A DNA stretch of 64,000 nucleotides, taken from assembly GCA_023898465.1 (NCBI GenBank), contig CP060223.1:416001-480000 (forward strand), written 5' to 3'. This document shows positions 5,310 through 45,936 of the stretch, in pieces. How positions within the stretch are numbered: the first letter of the stretch is position 1; each line of letters starts with the position of its first letter. The notes beneath the pieces are model-generated. The model saw only the letters and a list, made by a program, of their open reading frames with translations, searched no databases and was not told where the DNA came from. This DNA is from Candidatus Nomurabacteria bacterium. GTDB lineage: Bacteria; Patescibacteriota; Patescibacteriia; HK-STAS-PATE-3. A program made the position numbers and the translations under genes.

Positions 5310-5311
5310 TC

Positions 5312-8718: not shown

Positions 8719-9317
8719 TAAATAGACAAGGGTTTACCATGCTTGAAGTGACGGTTACCATTGCGATATTTAGTTTTATTATGGTTGGAGTACTTTCTTT
8801 TATTGCCTCAAGCTACCAATCCTATTTTAAACTTAACGATCGCACCTCAACCTTGAGTAAAGGTCGGAGTGCAATGGAACGTATGTTAAAAGAAATTCGA
8901 GGTGCGCGTGAAAGTTCCCTTGGCGCTTATCCAATTAATTCAGCTACGGCAAATGAATTCATCTTTTACGCAAATATTGATAGCGATGATCTCACTGAGC
9001 GTGTTCGCTACACGCTGAGCGGAAGCACGCTATCACGTGGTGTTATCAAGCCTGTCGGCACTCCTCTCCAGTATCTCCCTGCAAATGAAGTTGTGAGTAA
9101 TCTCGCGACTGATATTTATAACGGCGCAACGCCAACCTTCGCCTATTATGATGACACCTATACCGGCAGTGAAGCTGCACTTAGTTTTCCAGTAACTGCA
9201 ACAAATGTGCGTTATGTGCAATTTACCTTAAAGGTTGATGAAACGCCCGGTTCACCTCCCGAAGCTGTTGAATTAGTCTCCTCGGCAACTATTCGAAATT
9301 TAAAAGATAACCTCTAG
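8715..9317 (+). CDS. minor (pseudo)pilin with prepilin-type N-terminal methylation domain
   Basis: 200 aa. N-terminus RQG|FTMLEVTVTIAIFSFIMVGVL has Gly-1, Phe+1 and Glu+5. It overlaps the preceding gene by 4 nt. Confidence 0.6.
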   Translation: MINRQGFTMLEVTVTIAIFSFIMVGVLSFIASSYQSYFKLNDRTSTLSKGRSAMERMLKEIRGARESSLGAYPINSATANEFIFYANIDSDDLTERVRYTLSGSTLSRGVIKPVGTPLQYLPANEVVSNLATDIYNGATPTFAYYDDTYTGSEAALSFPVTATNVRYVQFTLKVDETPGSPPEAVELVSSATIRNLKDNL

Positions 9318-11176
9318 TGAAAATTCCTCGATTACAAAATCAGAGCGGAGTTGAACTCATCATGCTGATTGTGATGAGCGGTGTGTTGCTTTCCATTTTC
9401 ACGGCTGGATTTCTCCTAATTAATGCAGAAAAGCGTTTAACTATCCGATCAGCCGATCGTGAACGAGTGCACGCTATTGCGGAGGCGGGTATTAATTATT
9501 ACCGTTGGCATTTAGCACATAGTCCAGAGGACTATACCGATGGCGATGATATTTTACTTGATGATATTTCTCGGGCAGGATATACCGAAGCCTATCTCGA
9601 CCTTGGCTCTCAATACTATAGCGATGCCACATCCACATTACTTAGTATTCCCGCCTCTCTCGACCAGGCTCTCTGGTTAAGGACAAAACAAGCTGATGCT
9701 GCAGACACATCTGATTCCTTTTTGAGCTTTTGGGTAAATCGACCAGTTATTGTCTCTATTGGTTACGATAATCGTGGTACGGCTCCAACTTGGCTAAGCG
9801 GATCATTCACCGACTCTGGCCAACAAATCCAAGTAAGTGATGCTGGGGCATCTCCGCTGCGTGTTTGGCAAAAACAATTCTCAGCTGGCTCCAGCGTACT
9901 TTTAGGTGGTAATCTAGCCTCTGGAGCAAGTGGCGCACTCTCCATGTACACGATTACACTCACTCCAGTCGATTCAAGCGGTCCGTTTATTCATCCCTAT
10001 ACTGATTTTGATGGAAATGTGATTGGAAGATATAGCATCACTGTGACACCACCTAGCCTAGGTAGCACGATTACCACCGTGAGCTCTACAGGCTACTTAT
10101 TAAGTAGTGAAAAAAGTACACGAACGATAATTGCGCGTTTTGGCATCCCCTCTTTATCTGAGTATGCAGTTGTTGCCAACGATGTTATGCGTTTTGGTGA
10201 AGGCACAGAAACCTTTGGCAAGATACATTCTAACTATGGCATTCGCTTTGATGGACTCGCGCATGGACTTATTACGAGCGCATGCAGCACTTATGATGAT
10301 CCAGATCATAGCGGCCCACAGGAGGATTGCGTACATACTCATCAGCCAAATCCTAATACTGTTTTTGAGGGTGGACGTGAATTTCCCGTTGCCCCAGTAG
10401 ACTTCAATGGCATCACGGGTGATTTAGCAACCCTGAAGACTGCTGCACAAGAACCAAGCGGCGTATACTTATCCCCCTCAGGAGTCCAGGGCTATCATAT
10501 AACACTAAAAACGAACGGGACAATGGACATGCGCCGTGTAACATCTCAAGCGAGCTGCTTATACCGCAGTGGATCATGGCATGCCTATCCTGATGTATTC
10601 TCAATTGGAAATCAAAGTAATTTTACTTACGAAGGTGGGAGTTCTCTCAATGTACCTTTCCCGGCTAATGGAATAATTTTTGCTGAAGATAATATTTGGA
10701 TCGATGGAAGTATTGATAATGCAAAACTTACTATTGTTGCCGCAGAGGAGCCTCTGGCCAGTGGAAATGCAAACATTATTGTAAATAATGATCTCCACTA
10801 CACAAATGAAGATGGCACGGATACCATAGGGCTTATTGCTCAAAATGACTTTCATATTGGCTTCTACAGTGAGGATAATTTAGAGATTGATGCTGCGATT
10901 ATCGCCCAAAAAGGACGGGTGGGTCGTCCCTACTATGCCGACTATGGTTTGCCAAATAACCGCTATAGTCCAAATGCATGTGGAGACTATGTCCACAGGG
11001 ATACCGTCACACTTGATGGCTCAATCGCTACTAATGAGCGATATGGATTTGCCTACACTGACGACACTGGATATCAAAACCGAAATTTGTATTTTGACGA
11101 TAATCTCATTTTTGGTCCTCCCCCCTTATTCCCGACAAGCGGAGAATACGTTATGATTAGTTGGGAAGAACAATAG
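9317..11176 (+). CDS. large pilus-associated protein with PilX-like hydrophobic N-terminus (possible tip/minor pilin)
   Basis: 619 aa with a GTG start. The N-terminus QSGVELIMLIVMSGVLLSIFTAGFLL resembles PilX_N-type non-canonical prepilin leaders. It lies in the operon between the minor pilin and pilM. Weak call. Confidence 0.4.
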   Translation: MKIPRLQNQSGVELIMLIVMSGVLLSIFTAGFLLINAEKRLTIRSADRERVHAIAEAGINYYRWHLAHSPEDYTDGDDILLDDISRAGYTEAYLDLGSQYYSDATSTLLSIPASLDQALWLRTKQADAADTSDSFLSFWVNRPVIVSIGYDNRGTAPTWLSGSFTDSGQQIQVSDAGASPLRVWQKQFSAGSSVLLGGNLASGASGALSMYTITLTPVDSSGPFIHPYTDFDGNVIGRYSITVTPPSLGSTITTVSSTGYLLSSEKSTRTIIARFGIPSLSEYAVVANDVMRFGEGTETFGKIHSNYGIRFDGLAHGLITSACSTYDDPDHSGPQEDCVHTHQPNPNTVFEGGREFPVAPVDFNGITGDLATLKTAAQEPSGVYLSPSGVQGYHITLKTNGTMDMRRVTSQASCLYRSGSWHAYPDVFSIGNQSNFTYEGGSSLNVPFPANGIIFAEDNIWIDGSIDNAKLTIVAAEEPLASGNANIIVNNDLHYTNEDGTDTIGLIAQNDFHIGFYSEDNLEIDAAIIAQKGRVGRPYYADYGLPNNRYSPNACGDYVHRDTVTLDGSIATNERYGFAYTDDTGYQNRNLYFDDNLIFGPPPLFPTSGEYVMISWEEQ

Positions 11177-11177
11177 T

Positions 11178-12227
11178 ATGCCACTACCTAATTTCTCAAA
11201 TGCCTTTGGTTTAGAAATACGTGACACGGAAATACGCGTGGCACAGATTCACCGTCATGGAAAAAAGCTCTCTCTTTCTTCTTATGGTTTTTCGCAAATA
11301 CCAAACGGCGCAATGGAGCGAGGAGAGATCCTTAAATCTGATCAAGTAAAGTTAGCTATCCTCAACGCGCTTAAGTCACCTGTTGGGAAAAATTTTAGCA
11401 GTCAGTATGTAGTATGCGCTATTCCTGAGCAGCACGTTTTTACCACAGTCATCACTCTGCCGGCAAAAAAAAGTATTGAGAAAGACGACGTACAAGCTGC
11501 TGCACTACAGCAAATCCCCTATCCATTAGAAGATATTCAACTTGACTGGACTTTGGTAGATAAAGACGCAAAAACAAATTATATCCTTGTAGGGGCTGCC
11601 CCAAAAAACATAATTGCTGCGTATACTCAGGTACTTCGATCGGCGAATCTTATTCCAGTCGCTCTAGAGCCTCAGTCATCATCCATAGCGCGCGCTCTAC
11701 TGACCTCACATGACGCACAAACCCCAACCATGGTGCTGCACTTTGGACAAAAGCTCCTTACTATCTTTATCGTAAATAAAAACGTAGTATATTTTTCATC
11801 CTCTACGCCTATTTTTTCAGGTGAATCGATTATCAGTCTACTCAGTAAAAAGCTTGATTTAAATGCTGATAAGGCACGGAAGGCTGCTCAGTTATTCGGA
11901 TTACAAGCCAAAGAAGGAAAAGGCGAGGTGCGACGCGCACTTCTTCCTGAAATAAGTGCCTTAATGGAACATATTGAACAAATAAAAGAGTACTCAAGTA
12001 GCCACTTACCCGCTCCGGTGCATAACATCAGCACCATGCTAGTAACCGGAGAAATGAGCTCACTGCCTGGCCTAGCTGAATACCTACAGGAAGAGCTGCG
12101 CATACCAATTCAGCCAGGCTTACCTGGTGAGCGATATCAGCTTGAGATACCACAGAAGGAGCTTACATCGCTTGATCTGCAGTCCTCTGCTACGGTCTTA
12201 GGATTAGCTTTGCACGAACTCGCATGA
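11178..12227 (+). CDS. pilM: type IV pilus assembly protein PilM (actin-like ATPase fold)
   Basis: 349 aa. The N-terminal block FGLEIRDTEIRVAQI is typical of PilM/FtsA-like proteins. It is followed by PilN/PilO-like genes. Confidence 0.8.
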   Translation: MPLPNFSNAFGLEIRDTEIRVAQIHRHGKKLSLSSYGFSQIPNGAMERGEILKSDQVKLAILNALKSPVGKNFSSQYVVCAIPEQHVFTTVITLPAKKSIEKDDVQAAALQQIPYPLEDIQLDWTLVDKDAKTNYILVGAAPKNIIAAYTQVLRSANLIPVALEPQSSSIARALLTSHDAQTPTMVLHFGQKLLTIFIVNKNVVYFSSSTPIFSGESIISLLSKKLDLNADKARKAAQLFGLQAKEGKGEVRRALLPEISALMEHIEQIKEYSSSHLPAPVHNISTMLVTGEMSSLPGLAEYLQEELRIPIQPGLPGERYQLEIPQKELTSLDLQSSATVLGLALHELA

Positions 12228-12784
12228 AATCACTTAACTTTCTATTTCAAGAAGATCGCCAGGCCCTCCAAAGAGCTTATCAAGAGTTGCGTTTTCAGCA
12301 CACGTCTCTGCTTATTGTATTAAGCGTTGGACTCATTTCCGGACTTGTTTGGGGTACCAACCAGCTCCTTCATGTACGCATTCAACAACTTGACGATGAA
12401 ATCCAATCCACCCAGCAAACCGAACTCGTGCAGCAAACTACTGCCGCTGAATCAAAGGTGCGTGAGTTTAATACTCTAGTAAAGTTTTTTAGTGAAGAGA
12501 CAGAACTCATCTTTCCCCTCAGTGATCGTGTTGCTGAAATTAGTAAGATAATTCCCACAGGAATAAAAGTAGATCAACTTAGCTTAAATATGAATGCAAA
12601 ACAGCTTACCTTAGCTGGCAGCGCAAGCAACCGTGATAGTTACCTTTCCCTACGTGATGCACTAGCAAACACTGGATGGTTTGAGAGCGTGGAATTACCA
12701 ATTACAGATCTACTTAGCCGGGAAAATATCCGCTTTACGCTGCAGACTGATTTAACCGATGAGTTTTTTAACATAAGCAAATGA
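12224..12784 (+). CDS. pilN: PilN-like pilus assembly protein (single TM plus coiled coil)
   Basis: 186 aa with one N-proximal TM (LLIVLSVGLISGLVWG) and a coiled-coil/periplasmic domain. It is in the operon position after pilM and overlaps it by 4 nt. Confidence 0.5.
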   Translation: MKSLNFLFQEDRQALQRAYQELRFQHTSLLIVLSVGLISGLVWGTNQLLHVRIQQLDDEIQSTQQTELVQQTTAAESKVREFNTLVKFFSEETELIFPLSDRVAEISKIIPTGIKVDQLSLNMNAKQLTLAGSASNRDSYLSLRDALANTGWFESVELPITDLLSRENIRFTLQTDLTDEFFNISK

Positions 12785-13332
12785 AACTAGCCGGACAAAA
12801 AACTCGAGTTTTCATTATAGTCGAGCTTGGTATTTCACTCGCCTTGCTGCTACTCATCATTTTACCAAGCTGGCAAAATATTGAAGGAAGTAAAAAAACA
12901 ATAACAGAACGTCGCGTCACTCAGGCTGAGACAAATCAACTCACCGAGCGATCCAATGATCTTATCCAACGTAGCGGAGAGCTAGAGGGCAAAATTAATA
13001 CTCTGCAGGATCGCCTTATCAGCCCTGCCACTGCACTTGATTTCCTCACCCAGCTAGAATCTACCGCCTCCGCTTCAAACGTTGTATTGGATGTAAAAAG
13101 CTTTGACCAGCCTAGCGCACAAAAAAAGGAAGGGGCGCTTAGCTTGTCAGCCATTGGCAGCTTCAGTGAGGTGCTTGGCTTTATTCATGAAATTGAACGC
13201 TTAAATTGGCTCCTTCAGATAGAGAACGTCAGCTTCTCCCCTAGTGCGGCTAATAACCGCAGCCAATCAGATACAGACACGGGTAACGCAGTGACGCTCA
13301 GTCTCGAGGCGTCTACCTTCTGGAAGGAATAA
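12781..13332 (+). CDS. pilO: PilO-like pilus assembly protein
   Basis: 183 aa. N-terminal TM, then a coiled-coil region (QLTERSNDLIQRSGELEGKINTLQDRL), then an alpha/beta domain. It overlaps pilN by 4 nt. Confidence 0.5.
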   Translation: MKLAGQKTRVFIIVELGISLALLLLIILPSWQNIEGSKKTITERRVTQAETNQLTERSNDLIQRSGELEGKINTLQDRLISPATALDFLTQLESTASASNVVLDVKSFDQPSAQKKEGALSLSAIGSFSEVLGFIHEIERLNWLLQIENVSFSPSAANNRSQSDTDTGNAVTLSLEASTFWKE

Positions 13333-36688: not shown

Positions 36689-37819
36689 CCTAGTTGCGAA
36701 TAAACGCTACGAAGCTTCTGTCCGATTTCCTGCCAGTCATAGCGTTGACGGGCTAAGTTCTGACCAGCTTCACCTAGCTGACGCGCGTAATCATCATTGC
36801 TCAATATCGCTCGTATTGCGTCCTCAAGCGCGTGCGTATTTCCTGGAGGATATAAAATGCCACCTACCCCATTTTCAGTAACTTCGAGGGTGGGTGGCAA
36901 CTCGCTACTTACATAAGGCGTGCCAAGGGCCATTGCTTCAGCCAAGACAATCCCAAAGCCCTCAACTGAGGAAGGGAGACAGAGAATATGACTCTTTGCC
37001 ATTGTTTCTAAGACATCGACATGTTTTTCCACGAAGCCGGAAAAATGCACTCGATCCGAAACACCCAGCTGCTCAGTTAGGGCTTCTAACTTGGCTTGCT
37101 GTGGACCGCTACCGATAATTTTCACCTGCAGATTTGGCATATCATTCCGCAGCTCAGCTACTACTTCCAATAAATCAGGTATACGTTTGTAATTCACTAG
37201 GCGGCCAACAAAACAAATAGTTGGGTCATCATAGCGTTCAAGGTTTTTAGGCAGACGAGTGAAGTCAACTCCGTTTGGTATTACGGCAATACGCTTTGGA
37301 TCCATACCATGCCGCAATAGCTTCGCACGAGTAGCGGTACTCACTGCGATAACTTTATCCCAAAGGAATTTTAAAAAGCGGCGTTCTACAAATTCACCGA
37401 AGAGACTAGAAGAAAACCAAGGTTAGCCCGCCACTCACCTATCCACACATCATGATAGGTTGCTACCGCGCGAATTTTCTTTTTCTTGGCAATAGTGATA
37501 GCTGCTTGATAAAGCAGGAAATTTGTCCCCTCAACTACGTCAATATCTTTTTTAAGCGCAGTTGCAATCACATTACGCATAAATATGTAGCGCTTCAGTA
37601 AACCGCCTGATTGAGTGAAAGAACGCGAGGACCGCAACGAATAACCTCAATACCAGGTAGTGGTTCCTGAGTCAGGTGTCCTTCTTGTGCGGCAATGACA
37701 GTTACTTTATGCTCTTTTGCTAACTCTAGTGCCGAGTAATATGTGCGTGCTTCTACACCGCCCCGAAAATCAAGATCTGCTGTGTATGGGAAAAATTCTG
37801 CAAGAATGAGGATCTTCAT
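36685..37819 (-). pseudogene. GT4 glycosyltransferase disrupted by two or more frameshifts (three ORF fragments)
   Basis: The N-terminal fragment 37595-37819 (MKILILAEFFPYTADLDFRGGVEARTYY...), the middle 37386-37637 and the C-terminal 36685-37344 (...CLPSSVEGFGIVLAEAMALGTPYVSS) are consecutive GT4 segments in three different frames. The C-terminal frame continues upstream as ...GEFVERRFLKFLWDKVIAVSTATRAK without an ATG. Confidence 0.55.
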
Positions 37820-37820
37820 A

Positions 37821-38132
37821 TTATTCTTTTTTATCCGTTTCTTTACGTAGTGCTAACTCGCGGACAATCGTGGTTATCTCCTGTTCCAAATGTTCAATCT
37901 TCATCATCACTCGGAACAGCGCATACACTAAACCAATGACCGAGATGTAGAGAATAGCATCGACGCCTCGTCCAACGCCGAGGAATTTAGCAAGATACTC
38001 AGTTAATCGAGGTAAAAGGACTATAACACTGATGCCCAGCCAAATAAGAAGCCAAAAAAGAATTCTTTGGCAGTAATATCCTTTTTGCGTAACGATATGC
38101 AGTCCGTACAACCACGAAGAAGGCAAACACAA
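37821..38132 (-). CDS. small 3-TM membrane protein with C-terminal charged helix (DUF2304-like partner of polyprenyl-phosphate GT2 enzymes?)
   Basis: 103 aa. It lies immediately downstream of the GT2 (dolichol-P-sugar synthase-like) pseudogene. The family call is tentative. Confidence 0.35.
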   Translation of the reverse strand: MCLPSSWLYGLHIVTQKGYYCQRILFWLLIWLGISVIVLLPRLTEYLAKFLGVGRGVDAILYISVIGLVYALFRVMMKIEHLEQEITTIVRELALRKETDKKE

Positions 38133-38158
38133 TAACGAGAATCTGTATCAGCATAGTC

Positions 38159-38840
38159 TTATTTCAATAATCGAAGTAATAACAATCGAAAAAAAGTTCT
38201 TACACCCTCTCCAAAACTCTGTCCTTTTGACATTGAGTATTCAGTATAGATTGCAGCAATTGGCACTTCGCTTAGACGGAAAGCGTGCCGCTTCACCTCA
38301 TACATTATTTCCGTAGACACCTCCATGCGATTTGACTGCAGATGCAGGGTGCGAGCAGCCTGTCGAGTAAACTCCCGGAGGCCTGACTGACTATCACTCG
38401 TCTGTAATCCAAACATGAATAAGGTGATCCGATTTCCTATCGCGTTATACAGCCGACGACGCAAAGGCATCCTAGGCTGCGTCTTATCGCGGACAAGCAT
38501 ACGTGAGCCTACAACAACATCAGCTACACCTTTTTCAAGCGGCTCAATAATGCGTAGTATATCTTTTGCTTCATGCTGACCGTCAGCATCAAAGGTAACA
38601 ATGTATTCTGCGCCAGCTCGGATGGCAGCCTGAATGCCGGTAGCAAGCGCTCCACCAAGACCTCGATTAATGAGGTGGCGATACACCCGTGCACCTGCTG
38701 CTTGAGCTATCTGACCACTACCGTCACTAGAACCATCGTCAATAACAAAACATCCGGCGTGACTGCACGGACTGCGCGCACCACATCAGATATAGTCTTT
38801 GCTTCGTTAAATGCAGGAATAACAATTGCCACCTTCATGG
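38159..38840 (-). pseudogene. GT2 polyprenyl-phosphate sugar synthase (Dpm1/GtrB/ArnC-like), frameshifted near 38750
   Basis: A reverse-complement ATG at 38838-38840 gives MKVAIVIPAFNEAKTISDVVRAVRAV, then the frame breaks. A second frame continues AGCFVIDDGSSDGSGQIAQAAGARVYRHLINRGLGGALA..DADGQH into the 175-aa ORF 38159-38686. Confidence 0.55.
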
Positions 38841-38987
38841 CACAAATTACTCTACTAAAAAGCGGTCAAAAATGCAAGGGGTCACGCTATAAAAAATCCA
38901 AACTTAGCGTGCTGATTAATAAAAACAACGTGCCTTTGTGATCACGCCTATTGTGACTTGTCACTTTAGCCACTATGATGATACCGA

Positions 38988-40267
38988 ATGCCACTCCCAA
39001 ATCCGCAACTCCAAAACTTATATACTGACGCAAAAAAGGATTTTACCTTAGCCTTTCGCACTGGGATGCTGCACCTATTAAGCAGTTCCGGTATTGTCCA
39101 AATCTCTGGCTTTGTGGTTACACTTGTGCTTGTCCGCGTGCTCAGCACGGAATCGGTCGGGCATATTCGCCTCATTCATTCCGTACTGGACTTTCTCATC
39201 CTCTTAGGTGATTTTGGCTTAGCCATGGCGATGTTGAAATATATTGCCGAGCCAAATGACGAGGAGGAGAAAAAATCACTGCTTAGTCATGCCAGTTACG
39301 GAATTCTTTTCACTTCTTTGCTCACAGCCCTTCTGGCTTTTGGACTAAGCTTTATACCAAACTTAATTGGCGATGCGACAGCGCAAGCAGCGTTACGTTG
39401 GATGGTTTGGCTGATCCCCTTGCGACGCTTTTGGCATAGTTGTGCACTGGGAACATGGCCGAAAAAGAATCAAGCAAAAAGCATGGTATGAATTAGCCCA
39501 GCGGCTTGTACTTGTTGTCCTTACCTTAGGTGGACTTCTTTACGCTGGATATTCAGGATACCTCTACGGATTCGCTATTGGTATGGCACTTGTGACGCTT
39601 ATTTTACTGAGCCGACTACCCCAAGGCTGGTGGAGCCATCGTATGTAAAAGAAAAAATGCGCAAGCTTTTTGCTTTTGGCTGGTACGCCATGCTGGCCAA
39701 TCAATTCCAAGTTGTTGTAGTAACTGCTGATGTCGTCATGATTAGTTTACTCACTCGCGATGCGGTTGATGTGGGAATCTACAGTGTGATGGCGCTTTCA
39801 TCCGAGGACTTTGGATACTTCCAAATGCCATCATGCAAACTGCGCTTCCATATCTCTCGGAACAATCTGCTGATACGAATCAATTACAACAGAGCATCAA
39901 ACGGATCAGCACAAAATGGCCATGCTGATGCTGCCACTCTGCGCCTTACTTTTCTCCTGGCTCCCACGCTTATCCCTTACTCTTTGGAAGAGACTACGAG
40001 AGTGGAATAAAGGTCTTTCAGGTTCTGATCCTCTCACTCTTTTTCAGCTCATTGGCCATGGTCAACTATACCGCGCTTTTAAGTTTAGGTAAGGTAAAAT
40101 TTAACTTTTATACAGTACTTATTGAAGCCCTAGTCAACATTGTCTTGAATTACTGGCTGATTTCGCAACTTGGGATGATCGGTGCTGCCTGGGCAACAGT
40201 GGTCACCTTTGCACTACGGTATGGGATAAACTCATTTTTCCTCCGACGACAGCTTAAAACTGCTTGA
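38988..40267 (+). pseudogene. Wzx-like oligosaccharide flippase (MOP superfamily) broken into four ORF fragments
   Basis: The ORFs 38988-39491, 39442-39648, 39630-40010 and 40052-40267 are sequential segments of one polytopic MOP/Wzx-type protein in different frames. They need at least three frameshifts to join. Confidence 0.5.
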
Positions 40268-40366
40268 CAAAATAGAGGGATTTGCTAATTTCTGCGTGAC
40301 GGTGGCGACCTGACAAAGGGGCCGCTGTATTCATGTTGAGTAAAGTACTCACATGAGGCACGCACG

Positions 40367-40396
40367 TTGACAATCTAAACTAACGAAGCGTAAGTT
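40367..40396 (+). promoter_or_regulatory. sigma70-like promoter of island 2: -35 TTGACA (40367-40372), 18-nt spacer, -10 TAAGTT (40391-40396)
   Basis: It is followed by RBS GGGAGG (40405-40410) and ATG 40415. Confidence 0.4.
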
Positions 40397-40414
40397 GCGC
40401 GTTTGGGAGGATGC

Positions 40415-40960
40415 ATGAAAACGCTCAGTTTTTTGCTGATGTTGCTTAGCTTTGGCTTGGCAACACCGAGCTTGGCACAGCTCACGCTGCGCCATGGGAC
40501 ACTCATGCCAGGTAATGGTATGAGTGAATCAGCGCAATACCGTCTGGTGAGCGTCATCGGATGGGCTGACCTTAGCCAACATGCCGATACTACTTGGGTA
40601 CTGATCGAAGGGCCGTGGATTCCTCGGAACCATGACACCTCGGCAGTGGGAGGACCTGAAACTCAGGCACACCGCCTAAGCCTCTCGAACATTCAACCCA
40701 ATCCGATTGGTCAATCCGGTCTGATTCACTTCAATGTCCCTGGGATCAATGGAGAGAAATCGCCCCTTACCATGGCAATCTATGACGTCACCGGGCGTCG
40801 AGTACGCACACTGGTCTCAGGCGAGATGCAATCCGGTCCACAGGTTGCTATCTGGGATGGACGAGACGACAGTGGAAAGGCGCTGGCGAATGGCATCTAT
40901 TGGTGCCAAATTCAGTGCAAAAACAACAGGGCAACCAAAAAGCTGGCGGTTATCCGCTAA
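40415..40960 (+). CDS. secreted small protein consisting of signal peptide, short linker and a T9SS-type/FlgD-Ig-like C-terminal sorting domain (island 2)
   Basis: A signal peptide MKTLSFLLMLLSFGLATPSLA. The C-terminal about 90 aa (LSNIQPNPIGQSGLIHFNVPG...LTMAIYDVTGRRVRTLVSGEMQSGPQVAIWDGRDDSGKALANGIYWCQIQCKNNRATKKLAVIR) follows the por-secretion CTD / FlgD_ig pattern (NPF..T.I.F.L......V.L.IYD..GR.VRTL......G.H...WDG.D..G..V.SGVY.Y.L..G....TKKM.L.K). High G+C. Confidence 0.6.
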   Translation: MKTLSFLLMLLSFGLATPSLAQLTLRHGTLMPGNGMSESAQYRLVSVIGWADLSQHADTTWVLIEGPWIPRNHDTSAVGGPETQAHRLSLSNIQPNPIGQSGLIHFNVPGINGEKSPLTMAIYDVTGRRVRTLVSGEMQSGPQVAIWDGRDDSGKALANGIYWCQIQCKNNRATKKLAVIR

Positions 40961-40978
40961 GTAGAAGGAGATGAGATC

Positions 40979-42502
40979 ATGTTGAAGTTCCAGAGTCTCT
41001 GTATTTTGGTGGCGCTTTGTTGTGCCACGCTCGTCTTTGCTTCTGTGCCAAACCTGCTCACCTACCAGGGCTACTTGGAAGATGGTGGACAGGCAGCCAA
41101 CGGCAGCTACAACGTCACCTTCCTGCTCTACGATCAGGCAAGTGGCGGTACCAGCCTCTGGGAAGAAGTACAAACCGGTCTCGCGGTCCAGGACGGACTC
41201 ATGCAGTCATACCTCGGCCGGATCACGCCGCTTCCCAGCAACCTCGATGAGATCGAAACCCTCTATCTCAGCGTCGTTGTGCAGGGTGACACTCTGCAAT
41301 CACGCACCGAGCTCGCTTCTGTCCCCTACGCCTTCCGCGCCAAGCTATCTGAACACGCAGTCTATGCTGATTCGGCCGGAAATGGCGGAGATAGTGGTAG
41401 TGGATTCTGGGCAGCGAACGGCAACGATATCCATAACACCAATTCTGGGTTTGTGGGGATCGGGACGGAGAATCCAAACGAGCCCCTACATGTTGAAGGA
41501 CAAGGCATAGATTGGGCTGCCAGATTCACAAACAGTGATGGAAGCAGCAGCTCAGACGTGCGCTTGGCCTACAGAACTGGCGCTGGCATCTACATGAACA
41601 CCACTGGAACTACTAGTGGGTACTTCATGAACTTGAAGCATGAAGATCTCACAAAGGTCTATCTCACGAAGTCAGGCTACCTTGGGCTTGGTACGGATGG
41701 TCCAATTTCACAGCTCCACGTGGTGAACCCGGTCAACGCGGGGGCTGGAAACATCTTCAACATCGACCGAACGAACGACGTCACAAAGCAAACCTACATG
41801 GGCTTCCGTACGCACACGCTGCAGGACGCCTTCATAGGTGTGCCGGCAAACACGACCAACACGCTCACCTTTGGGTATGCCGGAAGCGCCGAGCTTATGC
41901 GTTACAACGCAAACGGGCTCGGTATTCGCACCACCAATCCGCAATTCACACTCGATGTGAACGGGAATACCAATTCAAGTCAGTACTACCTGGCCGGGCA
42001 CCAGATCGCCTACACTACTGGCGGCGGATCTCTCTTTCGTCTCAAGGACCCAAGCGGTGCAGACCGTGTTGAGTTCCAGGGGAACGGAGGCGATCTGCTC
42101 TTGGTGGGACCTGTCCGTATCAACGGCGACCTCTGCGTCACTGGTCAGAAAAACCGTATTGTGGAAACACCTTACGGCACTCTGGCTTTGAATGCTGAGG
42201 AATCGGCCGAAGCTTGGTTCTCTGCCAGCGGCGAAAGTCAGCTGGAAAACGGCCGAGCCCAAGTCGAGCTGTCTGAACGCTTCCTCGCGACCGTGGTCGT
42301 TTCTGATGAGCATCCTATGCAAGTCAACGCGACCTTCTATGGAGCGCACGGCGGCGGATGGTACGTGGAGCGTGGGCTGAACAGCTTCACTCTCGTCGAC
42401 CCCAGCGGGAGTAATGCACCGTTCACTTGGACGGTCAAAGCTCGCCAAAAAGGTTACGAAGACGTGAATCTCCGCGTTGTCGCGCCAACAGATGGGAGGT
42501 GA
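40979..42502 (+). CDS. secreted tail-fibre-like repeat protein (peptidase S74 / endosialidase-chaperone-type GIGT...LHV repeats) (island 2)
   Basis: A signal peptide is present. The N-terminal LTYQGYLEDGGQAANGSYNVTFLLYD..SGGTSLWEE block matches a phage-fibre-like motif. Three repeats of the G-[FYL]-[VLG]-G-[IL]-[GR]-T-x-x-P-x-x-x-L-[HD]-V motif occur (NSGFVGIGTENPNEPLHV; SGYLGLGTDGPISQLHV; NGLGIRTTNPQFTLDV). Confidence 0.55.
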   Translation: MLKFQSLCILVALCCATLVFASVPNLLTYQGYLEDGGQAANGSYNVTFLLYDQASGGTSLWEEVQTGLAVQDGLMQSYLGRITPLPSNLDEIETLYLSVVVQGDTLQSRTELASVPYAFRAKLSEHAVYADSAGNGGDSGSGFWAANGNDIHNTNSGFVGIGTENPNEPLHVEGQGIDWAARFTNSDGSSSSDVRLAYRTGAGIYMNTTGTTSGYFMNLKHEDLTKVYLTKSGYLGLGTDGPISQLHVVNPVNAGAGNIFNIDRTNDVTKQTYMGFRTHTLQDAFIGVPANTTNTLTFGYAGSAELMRYNANGLGIRTTNPQFTLDVNGNTNSSQYYLAGHQIAYTTGGGSLFRLKDPSGADRVEFQGNGGDLLLVGPVRINGDLCVTGQKNRIVETPYGTLALNAEESAEAWFSASGESQLENGRAQVELSERFLATVVVSDEHPMQVNATFYGAHGGGWYVERGLNSFTLVDPSGSNAPFTWTVKARQKGYEDVNLRVVAPTDGR

Positions 42503-42505
42503 GGG

Positions 42506-44284
42506 ATGAGATGGATTCTCTCGGTCCTACTCCTGGCTCTTGCGAGTAGTGCCTTTGCCGTACAACCAAATCTTCAGCTTCCCTTTGCTGAAGGGACCGT
42601 TCACAAATGTACGCAAGGTGCCAATGGCGAGTACTCACATCAGTACACTTCAACACGTTACGACATCGATCTAGACACGATCAACAATGGCGATGAAACG
42701 TTGTACGCCCCAGTATCCGGAACCGTCTATCTGCATGATGAAGGTGAATCCGGATTCGGAAAACACGTAAACATCGACGTTGGAGACAACACTTTTGTTC
42801 TCCTTGGGCATTGCAAGAGCTTTCTTGTTTCTGATGGACAGCAGATAACAACAGGGATGCCTGTTGCGCTTGAAGGCTGTACAGGAAATTGTTACGGTGA
42901 TCATGTACACTTTGGTCTGCACACTGGAAACCCTCAGATAGGCGCTTCAAGTAGCACATCAATTGTTGCCGAACACATCTGGGCTAGGGATGTGACCGCG
43001 GGTGGAGAATTTCGATTCTTCCGAAGCGATGAATTCATAGGCGATTTGACTAGTGGCCACAACTACGAGACTGGCTATTTAGGCACACCCTACCTCTGTT
43101 CTCCTGCTGGTCAAGATCCACCCGCTGCCCCGCCATTCTGGACCAAGCCTGGCGACATCAAATCATACTTGGCGAGATTCAGAAATACGGGAACGGCAAC
43201 GTGGATTGATAGCGGAGGCGTTGGTACGAATAACTACGTTGAACTACGATCGGTGTTTCAGAACGGCACACCCAAAAACTGTTGGCTTGAGCCAGTAGAT
43301 TGGATTGGGTGCCCTGCATCCTGCAACACTCAACGAGTAACCTCGTTTGACGAAGGGACAGTCGCTCCTGGTCAAACTGCAACATTCACCTTCCAGGCAC
43401 GAACACCAAATGTTCCAACTGACCTTGACGGTGAAGTAGTGTACTTCCGCCCCTTCCACGGAGCAGACATCGGAATCGACGGATGGGGGGAGATGAACTT
43501 CCTTATCTATGTCGACGCCGACGCGCCGCAGGTCCCGCCGAACTTGAGCGTGAACCCGTCAGACTGCACGAGCACCAACTCGTTCTTCTTTGACTGGGAT
43601 GCTTCGAGCGACGTGGGTAGTGGACTGGATCTCTACGAGTGGCAAATCAACGGATCTACACCGAACTCCACGACTAGTACTTCGGTACAAGTGAATGGGA
43701 GTCAAAGCGTTCACCCGGGCACCAACGTCTTCTACGTCAGAGCCTTGGATAAGGTCGGAAACGTGAGTGGAATGGCCACGGTGGAATTCTGCTTCGAAAC
43801 CGACTGCAACCTCAGCTTCAACCGAGACGACGACGGCAATAGTGTGCCTGACGGATGGACGGCTGACCCTCATGGAGGTTCAAGCTATAGCTGGCCGCCT
43901 GGAGGCATTGGAAGCAACTCACACTACGTACGTATTGTGAACGCTGATGGAGATGATTGGATGATCTATACTCGCACCAACTGCGATCAGATCACGCCAG
44001 GACAACTCTACCGAATCGGCTTCTGGTACAACACCACCTCCACGGCTCCGTTCGAGTGGGCACTGTTCAAGAGTAGTGTTTCAACTGGTCAACGAAGTCT
44101 GAACGCCCTCGTGAGCAACCCAACCGCAGACGGGCAGTGGCATCAATTCCAAAGTGAACCCTTCACAATCAACTCCGGCGACCTCAGCACCTACCCGAAA
44201 TTCGGGGTAAAGGTACCGCCGGGATCTGTCGGAACCTTCAACTTCGACGAGGTCTTCTTCGTTGAAACTGAGCTGTGTCAATAG
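42506..44284 (+). CDS. secreted M23-family metallopeptidase with Fn3/Ig-like and CBM-like (jelly-roll) C-terminal domains (island 2)
   Basis: A signal peptide MRWILSVLLLALASSAFA. M23/LytM motifs are H-x3-D (HQYTSTRYDID) and HxH (GDHVHFGLH) around LYAPVSGTV / VALEGCTGNCYGDHVHFGLH. An Fn3-like block follows (PNLSVNPSDCTSTNSFFFDWDASSD...YEWQINGS...VFYVRALDKVGNVSG), and the C-terminal about 170 aa has a CBM4/9-like pattern. Confidence 0.6.
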   Translation: MRWILSVLLLALASSAFAVQPNLQLPFAEGTVHKCTQGANGEYSHQYTSTRYDIDLDTINNGDETLYAPVSGTVYLHDEGESGFGKHVNIDVGDNTFVLLGHCKSFLVSDGQQITTGMPVALEGCTGNCYGDHVHFGLHTGNPQIGASSSTSIVAEHIWARDVTAGGEFRFFRSDEFIGDLTSGHNYETGYLGTPYLCSPAGQDPPAAPPFWTKPGDIKSYLARFRNTGTATWIDSGGVGTNNYVELRSVFQNGTPKNCWLEPVDWIGCPASCNTQRVTSFDEGTVAPGQTATFTFQARTPNVPTDLDGEVVYFRPFHGADIGIDGWGEMNFLIYVDADAPQVPPNLSVNPSDCTSTNSFFFDWDASSDVGSGLDLYEWQINGSTPNSTTSTSVQVNGSQSVHPGTNVFYVRALDKVGNVSGMATVEFCFETDCNLSFNRDDDGNSVPDGWTADPHGGSSYSWPPGGIGSNSHYVRIVNADGDDWMIYTRTNCDQITPGQLYRIGFWYNTTSTAPFEWALFKSSVSTGQRSLNALVSNPTADGQWHQFQSEPFTINSGDLSTYPKFGVKVPPGSVGTFNFDEVFFVETELCQ

Positions 44285-44320
44285 CTTGGAGGGGCTATTC
44301 CAGCATACATCGCACTTTCA

Positions 44321-44357
44321 CGCGCCTTCAGGCCAGCAACTTGGAGGCGCGTTTTTC
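44321..44357 (+). terminator. putative rho-independent terminator ending island 2
   Basis: Stem cgcgcct/aggcgcg (7 bp) with a 17-nt loop, followed by TTTTTC. Confidence 0.35.
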
Positions 44358-44424: not shown

Positions 44425-45936
44425 ATGTCAGAAAAACAAGAGAAGGCCAGTCGCTACCTCATTTCTATAGTAATTGGCTTTTTTATTGTATTTGGATTGG
44501 GTTTGCTAAACAAAAACCTTGCGTTTTTTGGTCAAAATCTTAGTTTTTCCCTTGATTTTCCTGCAAATGATAAGGTGCTCAGAGCTCTTCCAGCCATCAA
44601 TGAAACTACAGAAATTGGCGAGAACCCTGCAAACGGGAAGCAGTACGCGATTCAACGTCATACCATAACGACGCCCGAGACCAATATTTGGCTAAAAATA
44701 CCAGAAACACTGCAGTTAAGCGAAAAAAATCATCTCAGCGTTTCAACTGAATTTGATCCCAAACACCTCGATAGTTTAGAGCTTTCACTCGTCCACCCCA
44801 GTGGAATTAGCTATGACCTAGGGCCAATATACTCCGCCCAGCTCGAAGCTCTAGAGTGGAGCTCAATCACCCAGGACGGCGTTACTCTGTGGCAACGAAA
44901 CCCAAGCTACGCATCCATACAGGATTTCTACAAAAACCCACCGAAATCTGATGCAGAAACGCCTGTAATTGCCACTTTTCATGCCGCTCTCAATCCAGTG
45001 CTCCAGAGCGAATTTCTCGCTAATCTTCCTGAAAAAAAGCAATTAGAAAGTTCCCTACCCTATCTCGAGGGACCTTATACAACCTATACCCTGCTATTGG
45101 AAAGCGGCTCTCTTCATATTCACCTAGATGTACAGGAGCTTAATTTTTACGAAGGACCAGATCCGACCGAAATAAACGTTTTTGATCAATCTGGTGAGCT
45201 AATATATGTCACCACGCTTCCAGATGATGGCGTAGTAAGCGCCTCTAAAGTTCGAACCCCACTTCGTGCTATAGATTTTACCCTCGAGGGGCTTAATCCT
45301 GGAATGTATCGAGTTGAGGTTGATAATCCAGATATTCAGTCAAAACTAAGCACAAATCAACAATATGTTGTTTTAGCAAGCTCCCCGTTGCTTGTTGATA
45401 ACGTGTATAACAGCAGCGCAAATCCTCTAACTCTATACACAAATTCTCAAAATATTGATTTTCCTGCCTGGCATATTGACGCCAGCGCACAAAATATCAG
45501 TTTAGATGGTCACCAGATAACACTCGCTTCTGACCGACAAGTTGGCAGCTCAGTGCACTACAGCTTCCCTAACCTCGCTACAGCAAAAAATCCACACAGT
45601 ATTCAATTAGGTACCAATCATGCACTTATTGAAATAGATAAAAGCGCTGTTATTGCTTTTGATGCATTTGCTTATTTTAACCCTTTTACTATCCCAACTC
45701 GTCGTCTCACTGCCGATACTACCAAAGATACTTCAATAGAATACGTCTTAGCACGTTACGAAAAACAAAATCCGGTGAATGGAAGATACTTGCTGAATCG
45801 CGATTTCTACTTTGATAAAAGCTTCCTCAACGAAGACAATGGCCTGCAAATACGCTATAGCGCTGATACTCGCCTGGGATCCCCTCAATATCGCCTGCAA
45901 AAAGTTGACGTCTCAATCACTCGCTCTACTGAATAA
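44425..45936 (+). CDS. membrane-anchored hypothetical protein with large extracytoplasmic domain
   Basis: 503 aa with an N-terminal TM (YLISIVIGFFIVFGLGLL), then an Asn/Ser/Thr-rich soluble region. Backbone-like low G+C. Confidence 0.5.
   Translation: MSEKQEKASRYLISIVIGFFIVFGLGLLNKNLAFFGQNLSFSLDFPANDKVLRALPAINETTEIGENPANGKQYAIQRHTITTPETNIWLKIPETLQLSEKNHLSVSTEFDPKHLDSLELSLVHPSGISYDLGPIYSAQLEALEWSSITQDGVTLWQRNPSYASIQDFYKNPPKSDAETPVIATFHAALNPVLQSEFLANLPEKKQLESSLPYLEGPYTTYTLLLESGSLHIHLDVQELNFYEGPDPTEINVFDQSGELIYVTTLPDDGVVSASKVRTPLRAIDFTLEGLNPGMYRVEVDNPDIQSKLSTNQQYVVLASSPLLVDNVYNSSANPLTLYTNSQNIDFPAWHIDASAQNISLDGHQITLASDRQVGSSVHYSFPNLATAKNPHSIQLGTNHALIEIDKSAVIAFDAFAYFNPFTIPTRRLTADTTKDTSIEYVLARYEKQNPVNGRYLLNRDFYFDKSFLNEDNGLQIRYSADTRLGSPQYRLQKVDVSITRSTE

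What the first reader, a model, noticed from the sequence alone, without database searches (positions are those of the whole stretch)
40979..42502. Secreted protein with triple GIGT...LHV tail-fibre/endosialidase-chaperone repeats
The motifs NSGFVGIGTENPNEPLHV, SGYLGLGTDGPISQLHV and NGLGIRTTNPQFTLDV recur at roughly 65-aa spacing. An N-terminal LTYQGYL..G....G.Y.VTFLLYD block precedes them. Together these match the pattern of phage tail-fibre tips and S74 intramolecular-chaperone regions. There is no phage context in the window, so this may be a domesticated fibre used as an adhesin.
Basis: partly seen in the sequence, partly recalled or inferred. Interest (0 to 1): 0.5.

Follow-up and report, generated by a model that had tools for sequence, protein, structure and literature searches.

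The report
Secreted MAT-like phage-derived fibre adhesin
The gene encodes a secreted fibre protein of the kind that predatory Bdellovibrio uses to grip prey, built from phage tail parts but lacking the self-cleaving S74 chaperone, and it lies in a horizontally acquired three-gene cassette with a cell-wall-cutting enzyme in the genome of an ultrasmall (CPR) bacterium.

Summary
ORF 40979..42502 (+) encodes a 507-aa protein with three G-[ILV]-[GR]-T-x-x-P-x-x-x-L-x-V motifs, at aa 160, 236 and 315. The spacing is 76-79 aa, not 65. The protein also has a signal peptide and the LTYQGYL...VTFLLYD block.

It is not an S74 protein. Pfam gives no hit and there is no S-D-x-x-x-K dyad. It has the architecture of the non-S74 'mosaic adhesive trimer' (MAT) fibres of Bdellovibrio:
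- a signal peptide;
- a conserved beta-rich N-domain (weak Bdello_MAT_N match, which 22 of 34 relatives share);
- a shaft whose family profile finds, at E<=0.01, only the solved MAT trimeric beta-helices in the PDB (Bd2133, 2.8e-14);
- a beta-sandwich tip homologous to the C-terminal domain of siphophage Tal/PblB-like tail proteins.

The gene is the middle of a conserved secreted triad: a small FlgD-Ig/T9SS-sorting-domain protein, the fibre, and a modular wall hydrolase (here M23). The triad forms a GC-rich island (GC3 0.55-0.63 against 0.32-0.46) inside a glycan-synthesis locus of a Candidatus Nomurabacteria genome. A second assembly confirms the junctions.

The most likely function is a surface fibre adhesin working with a wall hydrolase. 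This is inferred; trimerisation and binding are untested. It is a new member of a very large known superfamily, and the context is moderately interesting.

The parts
40300..44352 (.). GC-rich three-gene island, probably horizontally acquired. It sits between a flippase gene and a host-like orphan gene, inside a glycan-synthesis locus.
   Evidence: GC is 0.50-0.58 against about 0.40-0.46 in the flanks. GC3 is 0.55-0.63 against 0.32-0.46. The related cassettes lie on contigs of GC 0.54-0.66. A separate Logan assembly, L005, spans both junctions at 99.8% identity. No flanking repeats were found.
40415..40960 (+). Gene 1: a small secreted protein (181 aa from ATG 40415; the mechanical ORF starts at TTG 40403). 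It has a signal peptide, a region of about 75 aa, and a FlgD-Ig / T9SS type A sorting-domain-like C-terminus.
   Evidence: Pfam FlgD_ig 4.8e-10. TIGR04183 Por_Secre_tail scores 26.8 bits against a cut-off of 23. GGAGG lies before the ATG. Homologues sit next to the fibre gene in L001 (twice), L003, L004 and L016.
40979..42502 (+). Gene 2, the finding: a 507-aa MAT-like non-S74 fibre protein.
   Evidence: The RBS AAGGAG lies 8 nt upstream of the ATG.
40979..41041 (+). Predicted Sec signal peptide (aa 1-21).
   Evidence: Read from the sequence MLKFQSLCILVALCCATLVFA|S. The AF2 model has a helix at aa 5-15 and the folded domain starts at aa 27. No signal-peptide predictor was run.
41042..41353 (+). 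Conserved beta-rich N-terminal domain (aa 22-125), containing LTYQGYL...VTFLLYD. It is MAT-N-like and is the presumed cell-proximal anchor.
   Evidence: NCBIfam Bdello_MAT_N gives E 7e-4 and 19.4 bits, below the cut-off of 60. 22 of 34 relatives match that model, the best at 5.3e-12. The domain sits at the N-terminus of 34 of the 62 proteins retrieved in the first two searches and of 62 of 146 representatives. pLDDT is above 90. PHROGs has no match to it.
41396..42100 (+). Shaft (aa 140-374): three modules of about 77-80 aa, each opened by a capping-loop motif.
   Evidence: The family profile hits the solved MAT beta-helices 8OND (Bd2133) at 2.8e-14, 8OJN at 8.8e-8 and 8OML at 3.8e-7. PHROG tail fiber 1.7e-9. 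It is 28% identical to the cyanophage S-PRM1 tail fibre. pLDDT is low in the monomer model.
41441..41494 (+). Motif 1: NSGFVGIGTENPNEPLHV (aa 155-172).
41672..41722 (+). Motif 2: SGYLGLGTDGPISQLHV (aa 232-248).
41912..41959 (+). Motif 3, degenerate: NGLGIRTTNPQFTLDV (aa 312-327).
42101..42499 (+). C-terminal beta-sandwich tip domain (aa 375-507). It is not S74 and is the presumed receptor-binding end.
42506..44284 (+). Gene 3: a secreted modular wall hydrolase (592 aa). An M23 domain (aa 1-200, with HVNID and HVH zinc motifs) is joined to a conserved Ig-like/CBM-like scaffold of about 390 aa.
   Evidence: Pfam Peptidase_M23 1.9e-13, with a weak CBM_4_9 match. Motifs. In other cassettes the scaffold is conserved while the catalytic domain is swapped, for a NAGPA-like domain in L003 and CHAP in L004.
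44320..44352 (+). Intrinsic terminator that closes the three-gene operon.
   Evidence: A 13-bp stem with 8 G-C pairs, followed by a T run (sequence).

Best explanation
The ORF encodes a Sec-exported fibre of the mosaic adhesive trimer (MAT) type, in the non-S74 subclass.

Proposed working (trimerisation, surface display and binding are inferred, not shown):
- After signal-peptide removal, a beta-rich N-domain of about 100 aa sits next to the producer's surface.
- Three shaft modules of about 78 aa, each opened by a G-I-G-T-x-x-P-x-x-x-L-H-V 'capping loop', wind with two other chains into a short intertwined trimeric beta-helix.
- A C-terminal beta-sandwich, of the kind found at the end of siphophage Tal/PblB-like tail proteins and tailspikes, forms the distal receptor-binding tip.

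The gene is co-transcribed with a small secreted FlgD-Ig/T9SS-sorting-domain protein and a secreted M23 peptidoglycan hydrolase carrying Ig/CBM-like domains. The triad is a mobile cassette that entered this Candidatus Nomurabacteria (CPR) genome from a higher-GC donor. The most likely job is to hold the cell, or the hydrolase, against another cell's envelope while the wall is cut.
For: Shown here:
1. The ORF and motifs are real and far beyond chance.
2. The five-member subfamily profile finds only Bdellovibrio MAT fibre structures in the PDB at E<=0.01: 8OND/Bd2133 2.8e-14, 8OJN 8.8e-8, 8OML 3.8e-7, 8ON4 and 8OL4. MyRF follows at 0.38. The alignments run through the GxVGIGTxxPxxxL motifs (the wider profile is).
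3. The N-domain gives a weak Bdello_MAT_N hit (7e-4). 22 of 34 relatives hit the same model, down to 5e-12. The domain starts right after the signal peptide, as described for all 21 MATs (PMC10769870).
4. S74 is absent. Eight Bdellovibrio MATs also lack S74 and end in beta-sandwich or lectin tips.
5. The tip folds confidently as a beta-sandwich. It matches phage tail proteins by fold and by sequence.
6. The same N-domain, shaft and tip architecture occurs in at least 29 further 50%-identity clusters.
7. The triad of small Ig protein, fibre and hydrolase recurs at 30-40% identity in L001 (twice), L003 (twice), L004 and L016. The hydrolase catalytic domain is swapped between M23, NAGPA-like and CHAP.
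8. All three proteins have N-terminal signal sequences.
9. The island is compositionally foreign but physically real: GC3, the second assembly, and the terminator.
Against: - Trimerisation is not shown. Only a monomer model could be made, and the shaft is poorly predicted there (pLDDT about 40-80).
- The protein's own Bdello_MAT_N score (19.4 bits) is far below NCBI's cut-off of 60, so it is not a member of the Bdellovibrio subfamily model.
- At 507 aa with three modules it is much shorter than the roughly 1,000-aa Bdellovibrio MATs.
- The motif has one more residue between V-G and P than the consensus printed in PMC10769870.
- Structural matches of the tip to solved structures are weak. No Foldseek PDB hit reaches E<=1e-3.
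- How such a fibre would be held on a CPR cell is unknown. CPR cells have no outer membrane and are not expected to have a T9SS.
- The cassette may not be expressed or useful in this host.
Confidence: 0.7

Rival explanations
1. One reading: an S74-type tail fibre or endosialidase-like protein whose C-terminal intramolecular chaperone trimerises the fibre and then cuts itself off at a Ser-Lys dyad.
For: Many relatives that share the N-domain and the repeats do end in Pfam PF13884 Peptidase_S74. The GIGT motif also occurs upstream of S74 domains, as in MyRF and Bd3182.
Against: Pfam finds nothing in this protein at E<=1. No S-[DEN]-x-x-x-K motif is present. The C-terminal 130 aa fold as a beta-sandwich homologous to Tal/PblB-type tail protein ends.
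Confidence: 0.02
2. It is a structural tail fibre of a prophage, tailocin or contractile injection system, or a remnant of one. On this reading it is not a cellular adhesin.
For: The shaft and tip modules occur in real phage tail proteins. The adjacent M23 hydrolase resembles phage lysins and tape-measure M23 domains.
Against: - All three cassette proteins carry Sec signal peptides, which virion proteins normally lack.
- The N-domain has no PHROG match.
- None of the 30 neighbouring ORFs scanned against Pfam in the window, and no called gene on the related contigs L001-L004, has a capsid, tail, portal, terminase or integrase family.
- PADLOC and IMG/VR pattern scans find nothing.
Confidence: 0.07
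3. It is a passenger. On this reading the cassette works in its donor, an outer-membrane bacterium with a type IX secretion system in which the small CTD protein is surface-attached. In the Nomurabacteria genome it would be a recent and functionally idle acquisition.
For: Gene 1 passes NCBI's cut-off for a T9SS type A sorting domain. CPR bacteria are not known to have T9SS, from general knowledge. GC3 is unameliorated. The closest relatives are only 35-40% identical and sit on high-GC contigs.
Against: - All three ORFs are intact in two assemblies, with RBSs and a terminator.
- The M23-coding segment has host-like GC3 (0.445). Its nearest relatives (42-54% identity) are M23 proteins that sit next to PrgI/TraC/VirB4-like genes, and a BLASTP with this segment alone does not match the M23 domain of the L001 cassette at E<=1e-3. 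This suggests the hydrolase was remodelled after or during transfer.
Confidence: 0.15
4. It is an assembly chimera or contamination: the GC-rich 4 kb would belong to another organism.
For: The GC steps at about 40300 and 44340 are sharp. The MAG carries many single-base errors immediately upstream.
Against: A separately assembled 27.5-kb Logan contig (SRR12358676) carries the island with both low-GC flanks at 99.8% identity.
Confidence: 0.03

Closest known systems
Bdellovibrio bacteriovorus MAT (mosaic adhesive trimer) fibres, non-S74 subgroup, e.g. Bd2133 (PDB 8OND) and Bd1334 (Caulton et al. 2024, PMC10769870)
   Same: - A signal peptide is followed at once by a conserved beta-rich N-domain.
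- The shaft is made of modules with the VGxGTxxPxxxL capping-loop motif and is homologous to the solved intertwined trimeric beta-helices.
- The C-terminal tip is exchangeable and non-S74, here a beta-sandwich.
- The protein is encoded by a cell, not a phage.
   Different: - It is about half the length, with three shaft modules.
- The N-domain scores below the curated Bdello_MAT_N cut-off (19 against 60 bits).
- The tip is a different domain (phage Tal/PblB-type).
- The host is a CPR bacterium, not a predatory proteobacterium.
- It is embedded in a conserved triad with a small FlgD-Ig/T9SS-CTD protein and a modular wall hydrolase. That context did not come up in the passages of the MAT paper that I searched.
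Phage fibres and spikes with Peptidase_S74 chaperones (K1F endosialidase 3GW6, T5 L-shaped tail fibre pb1 4UW8) and eukaryotic MyRF
   Same: They share the capping-loop motif and the beta-helix module type. Many relatives of this protein end in PF13884. MyRF is a weak profile hit.
   Different: This protein has no S74 domain and no Ser-Lys dyad. It has a signal peptide and a cellular N-domain.
C-terminal domain of siphophage Tal / PblB-like tail proteins (Enterococcus phage phiFL3A gp58, Lachnospiraceae prophage Tal, PHROG 6616/33972) and tailspike C-terminal sandwiches (Pam1 7EEA, K1 lyase 7W1C, R2 pyocin fibre 6CL6)
   Same: The tip (aa 375-507) is 27-41% identical to the prophage Tal ends and 29.5% identical to phiFL3A gp58.
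   Different: In phages the domain ends a baseplate/Tal protein that follows the tape-measure and Dit genes. Here it ends a secreted MAT-like fibre with no phage neighbours.
Trimeric autotransporter adhesins (a JGI label on relative P0014)
   Same: Both are elongated, repeat-built, presumably trimeric surface adhesins.
   Different: No YadA-like anchor, head or stalk families were detected by Pfam. The anchoring end here is N-terminal, not a C-terminal beta-barrel.

Membership tests
MAT (mosaic adhesive trimer) superfamily | An N-terminal Sec signal peptide | tested here: met
   Read from the sequence (MLKFQSLCILVALCCATLVFA|S). The model has a helix at aa 5-15 ahead of the first domain. No dedicated predictor was available.
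MAT (mosaic adhesive trimer) superfamily | [quoted passage not shown] | tested here: met
   Bdello_MAT_N matches aa 13-83 at E 7e-4. 22 of 34 relatives with the same domain match it, the best at 5.3e-12. pLDDT is above 90 and the domain is all-beta.
NCBIfam NF053851 Bdello_MAT_N (curated subfamily model) | A score at or above the curated cut-off of 60 bits | tested here: not met
   The score is 19.4 bits. The protein is therefore a superfamily relative, not a member of the Bdellovibrio subfamily.
MAT (mosaic adhesive trimer) superfamily | A shaft of beta-helix modules carrying the capping-loop motif | tested here: met
   There are three motifs. At E<=0.01 the family profiles hit only MAT fibre structures in the PDB: 8OND at 2.8e-14 (A1) and 1.2e-15 (A4), plus 8OJN, 8OML, 8OL4 and 8ON4.
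MAT (mosaic adhesive trimer) superfamily | An intertwined homotrimer | not testable with these tools
   Only monomer AlphaFold2 was available. The shaft has low confidence as a monomer, which is compatible with an obligate trimer but does not prove one.
MAT (mosaic adhesive trimer) superfamily | An exchangeable C-terminal tip domain, S74 or non-S74 | tested here: met
   The N-domain and shaft are shared with proteins that end in S74, C1q, collagen-type or other domains. This protein ends in a Tal-type beta-sandwich.
MAT (mosaic adhesive trimer) superfamily | Display on the producer's surface and binding of another cell's surface | not testable with these tools
   This needs microscopy and binding assays.
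Peptidase_S74 (PF13884) intramolecular chaperone fibres | A C-terminal S74 domain | tested here: not met
   Pfam returns 0 families at E<=1. The relatives P0006 and P0007 do have the domain.
Peptidase_S74 (PF13884) intramolecular chaperone fibres | The catalytic S-D-x-x-x-K Ser-Lys dyad | tested here: not met
   No S[DEN]xxxK occurs anywhere in the 507 aa.
Phage virion tail fibre (prophage gene) | Location within a tail/baseplate/lysis gene module | tested here: not met
   Thirty large ORFs across the window are glycan-synthesis, pilus or housekeeping genes. The related cassettes L001-L004 also lack phage genes.
T9SS type A cargo (applies to the neighbouring gene 40415..40960, not to the fibre) | A C-terminal sorting domain above the curated cut-off | tested here: met
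   TIGR04183 scores 26.8 bits against a cut-off of 23. Pfam Por_Secre_tail scores 24.4 against 27, so it is not met there. FlgD_ig scores 39.7 against 27.
T9SS type A cargo (applies to the neighbouring gene 40415..40960, not to the fibre) | T9SS machinery present in the same genome | not tested
   Only 64 kb of the 1.08-Mb genome is available. None of the 37 window proteins scanned against Pfam matched a T9SS machinery family.

The most novel reading that the evidence does not exclude
The triad of a small Ig/CTD protein, a MAT-like fibre and a hydrolase with a swappable catalytic head may be an undescribed, horizontally mobile 'attach-and-cut' module for cell-to-cell interaction. On this reading a CPR episymbiont captured it and re-fitted it with an M23 domain of the type found beside Gram-positive-style type IV secretion genes. 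It would use it to recognise its host bacterium's envelope and breach the wall locally. That would give Patescibacteria a phage-like host-recognition device in addition to type IV pili.
Probability: 0.22. Interest if true: 0.65.

Novelty: new member of a known kind. Interest (0 to 1): 0.4.

Why it matters
How ultrasmall CPR/Patescibacteria recognise and hold on to their host cells is largely unknown beyond type IV pili. A secreted fibre with a phage-type receptor-binding tip, co-transcribed with a peptidoglycan hydrolase, is a concrete and testable candidate for host recognition or wall breaching.

The locus also shows three broader points:
- MAT-like chimeric fibres are not confined to predators. 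The superfamily has more than 150,000 cluster representatives.
- They travel between phyla as small cassettes.
- Both the fibre tip and the hydrolase head are swapped like phage receptor-binding and lysin modules.

For annotation, the result corrects a tempting 'S74 / endosialidase chaperone' label.

Tried and rejected
- **Pfam on the fibre:** nothing at E<=1.
- **Single-sequence PDB searches:** only chance antibody VH hits at E 0.1-0.5. I rejected these as noise.
- **PADLOC:** no defence family for any cassette protein.
- **tRNA and Rfam scans of the window:** nothing, so there is no integration-site clue.
- **Repeat search around the island:** only short chance repeats, with no att-like or IS-like ends.
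- **IMG/VR pattern scans with the tip alignment and the whole protein:** no confirmed relatives.
- **Genome collection scan:** the 9-sequence tip alignment was too divergent to use. The 5-sequence alignment found only three Lachnospiraceae prophage loci, so the donor lineage stays unknown.
- **Metagenome scan:** only four more loci.
- **Naming the donor through 90% clusters of neighbouring genes:** no organism names came back.
- **AFDB50 fold library:** not available, so the N-domain model could not be compared with predicted Bdellovibrio MAT N-domains.
- **Full-length monomer model:** it did not resolve the shaft.
- **Literature search for the sequencing run:** no paper mentions SRR12358676. 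A search on tail fibres and S74 in CPR or episymbionts turned up nothing describing a fibre like this in CPR.
- **More distant relatives (P0006, P0007, P0008, P0021):** they lack the hydrolase neighbour, and three of them also lack the small Ig-protein neighbour. The gene after P0021 in L010 matches the small-protein profile only weakly (5e-5). The triad is therefore specific to the close subfamily.
- **Overlapping ORFs 41022..41510 (+) and 41975..42448 (-):** I treated these as by-products of the high GC content. The 40979..42502 frame is the one with homologues.
Full report

Yes. ORF 40979..42502 (+) encodes 507 aa. It is identical to USN53968.1, 'hypothetical protein H6760_02250' of a Candidatus Nomurabacteria MAG whose contig is 1,082,586 bp.

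The quoted strings sit at aa 155-172, 232-248 and 312-327. The N-terminal block LTYQGYL...VTFLLYD is at aa 27-52. The motif cores start at aa 160, 236 and 315, so they are 76 and 79 aa apart rather than about 65.

The pattern G[ILV][GR]T..P...L.V occurs three times. Among 200,000 shuffles of the protein, 11 had a single match and none had two. Outside the motif the three modules are only loosely alike. The first 21 residues look like a Sec signal peptide; I read this from the sequence and ran no predictor.

**2. What the protein is made of**

An alignment with its four full-length relatives (31-39% identity in the alignment) shows a conserved N-domain, a variable middle and a conserved C-domain. 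HMMs of the three parts behave as independent modules:
- The N-domain (aa 22-125) sits at the extreme N-terminus of 34 of the 62 proteins retrieved by then.
- The repeat module occurs in nearly all of them.
- The C-domain (aa 375-507) occurs in only eight or nine.

An exhaustive profile search found 159,283 cluster representatives at E<=1e-3. They include giant proteins of up to 7,920 aa with as many as 48 matched stretches. Among the top 146 new representatives, 29 have exactly this architecture, with the N-domain first, 1-9 motifs and the C-domain last, at lengths of 429-1,191 aa. The building blocks are therefore very common, and this exact combination forms a modest family.

**3. Not S74**

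Pfam finds no family in the protein even at E<=1. No S-[DEN]-x-x-x-K dyad exists. Relatives such as P0006 and P0007 do end in PF13884 and show the SDxxxK motif.

**4. What it is: a MAT-type fibre**

NCBIfam gives a single weak hit, Bdello_MAT_N ('mosaic adhesive trimer family chimeric fiber protein'), at aa 13-83. The E-value is 7e-4 and the score 19.4 bits, against a cut-off of 60. The same model is hit by 22 of 34 relatives, down to 5.3e-12.

Caulton et al. 2024 (PMC10769870) define MATs as follows:
- The shaft is an intertwined trimeric beta-helix with recurrent 'capping loops' of consensus V-G-G/N-pi-x-x-P-x-x-x-L.
- The tip is exchangeable. Thirteen of the 21 end in S74, and eight end in beta-sandwich, TNF-like or C-type-lectin tips.

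A profile of the five close family members searched against all PDB sequences returns, at E<=0.01, only MAT fibre structures. These are 8OND/Bd2133 at 2.8e-14, 8OJN at 8.8e-8, 8OML at 3.8e-7, 8ON4 and 8OL4. MyRF follows at 0.38. The alignments run through the GxVGIGTxxPxxxL motifs. The wider 34-sequence profile gives the same list. The shaft is thus homologous to experimentally solved trimeric beta-helices.

Direct confirmation of a trimer was not possible. The monomer AlphaFold2 model is confident for the N-domain (aa ~25-112) and the C-domain (aa ~410-495), both with pLDDT above 90. It is poor for the shaft. The motif here has one residue more between V-G and P than the consensus as printed in the paper.

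**5. The tip**

Modelled alone, aa 371-507 give a beta-sandwich whose core has pLDDT above 90.
- Against predicted viral structures there are 18 hits at E<=1e-3. Every one that carries a name is a phage tail, minor tail or tail-fibre protein, and TM-scores reach 0.69.
- By sequence, the domain is 27-41% identical to the C-terminal end of proteins in three Lachnospiraceae genomes. In L007 that protein follows the major tail, tape-measure and Dit genes, which is the Tal position. In L008 it follows a tape-measure gene.
- It is 29.5% identical to gp58, a PblB-like tail protein of Enterococcus phage phiFL3A. The shaft is 28% identical to a cyanophage S-PRM1 tail fibre.
- PHROGs agrees: 'tail protein' for aa 377-499 and 'tail fiber' for aa 149-336. 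It has no match for the N-domain.

The protein therefore joins a cellular N-terminal domain to phage-type shaft and tip modules.

**6. Context**

The window has no phage genes. The neighbours are glycosyltransferases, sugar epimerases and aminotransferases, methyltransferases, an ABC exporter and a flippase. Further upstream lies a type IV pilus operon.

The fibre gene is the middle of a tight three-gene operon with RBSs and a strong terminator at 44320-44352.
- Gene 1 (40415..40960) is a small secreted protein. Its C-terminal half is a FlgD-Ig / T9SS type A sorting domain. It scores above NCBI's cut-off and just below Pfam's.
- Gene 3 (42506..44284) is a secreted M23 peptidase with intact HxxxD and HxH motifs. 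The catalytic domain is followed by about 390 aa of Ig-like and CBM-like domains.

The same triad, at 29-47% identity for each component, is found in the following metagenome contigs:
- L001/L002, where it is duplicated in tandem.
- L003, where it is also duplicated in tandem.
- L004, which has two fibres.
- L016, which also has two fibres.

In these cassettes the hydrolase keeps its C-terminal scaffold but changes its catalytic head: M23 in L001, NAGPA-like in L003 and CHAP in L004. More distant N-domain fibres (P0006, P0007, P0008, P0021) lack the hydrolase partner. Only the gene after P0021 in L010 matches the small-protein profile, and that match is weak at 5e-5.

**7. Origin**

The operon is a compositional island. 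GC is 0.50-0.58 against about 0.42 in the flanks. GC3 is 0.55-0.63 against 0.32-0.46. The related cassettes lie on contigs of GC 0.54-0.66. A T9SS sorting domain is out of place in a CPR bacterium, a judgement that rests on general knowledge.

The junctions are not an artefact of one assembler. A 27.5-kb Logan contig from run SRR12358676 carries the island and both flanks at 99.8% identity.

The hydrolase looks chimeric. Its M23-coding part has GC3 0.445 and is 42-54% identical to M23 proteins from other uncultured genomes. The two I looked up (P0212 and P0220, in L019-L021) sit beside PrgI/TraC/VirB4-like type IV secretion genes. A BLASTP with this part alone does not match the M23 head of the L001 cassette at E<=1e-3. 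The scaffold has GC3 0.60 and is 47% identical to L001. I could not name the donor lineage.

**8. Mechanism**

The modular homology and the conserved secreted triad are shown. The rest is inferred: the fibre trimerises, is displayed with its N-domain towards the producer, and binds a surface structure of another cell through its tip. The co-expressed hydrolase would then cut peptidoglycan nearby.

The small Ig-domain protein may be an anchor or adaptor for the fibre, or a trans-acting assembly factor that replaces the missing S74 chaperone. No evidence here separates these roles.

Swapping of both the tip and the catalytic head is what one expects of a device aimed at varied foreign envelopes. 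For an episymbiotic CPR cell, a role in host attachment or wall breaching is attractive but unproven. The cassette could equally be an idle recent import.

**9. Verdict**

The S74 interpretation is rejected, and the 'domesticated phage-like fibre adhesin' idea is supported in the more precise form of a non-S74 MAT-like fibre. It is a new member of a large known superfamily. The conserved triad and its transfer into a CPR genome give it moderate interest.

Noticed in passing
window 37282-39973: Compared with the independent Logan contig L005, the window has 12 single-base deletions (37408-39973) and 14 substitutions in 37282-37381, with two more substitutions at 38372-38373. All lie just upstream of the island. 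They break a GT2 gene, a DUF2304 gene and a 428-aa flippase gene that are intact in L005. This looks like unpolished long-read error or strain heterogeneity at a variable spot. The island itself differs at one base (43887).
   Followed up: partly
window 42506-43105 (M23 head of the hydrolase gene 42506..44284): The catalytic head has host-like GC3 (0.445, against 0.60 for the rest of the gene). It is 42-54% identical to M23 proteins from other uncultured genomes. The two whose contigs I fetched sit beside PrgI/TraC/VirB4-like type IV secretion genes (L019-L021, one on an 839-kb contig). A BLASTP with this head alone does not match the M23 head of the related L001 cassette at E<=1e-3. This points to a domain swap onto the imported scaffold.
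   Followed up: partly
window 40415-40960: A protein that passes NCBI's cut-off for a T9SS type A sorting domain is encoded in a Candidatus Nomurabacteria (CPR) genome. No outer membrane or T9SS is expected in that group. All its cassette homologues end in ...ATKQLVLLK-like tails.
   Followed up: partly
window 44425-45936: A 503-aa protein with an N-terminal membrane helix lies immediately downstream of the island. Its GC is host-like. No significant Pfam, NCBIfam or PADLOC family matched it. It is conserved in the Logan contig. Its function is unknown.
   Followed up: no
window 3582-13332: A type IV pilus operon: PilB-like ATPase, PilC-like platform protein, a 735-aa protein with an N-terminal methylation motif and a CarboxypepD_reg domain, and PilM. 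This is the known CPR host-attachment machinery, encoded about 30 kb from the fibre cassette.
   Followed up: no
L012 1-11950; L001 3798-11263; L003 1-7058; L016 1-8640: N-domain fibre genes often occur as tandem paralogue arrays. L012 has at least four N-domain fibre genes in a row, next to two further repeat-bearing genes. The whole triad is duplicated head-to-tail in L001 and L003, and L004 and L016 carry two fibres per hydrolase.
   Followed up: partly
proteins P0063-P0208: The repeat module builds giant proteins of 2,000-7,900 aa with up to 48 matched stretches. Thirty-two proteins longer than 1,500 aa start with the same N-domain. P0009, from the predatory Bradymonas sediminis, also carries the N-domain.
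   Followed up: no
window 41022-41510 (+) and 41975-42448 (-): Long alternative-frame ORFs (162 and 157 aa) overlap the fibre gene. They are most likely by-products of the locally high GC content. Their translations look compositionally skewed and I did not search them.
   Followed up: no
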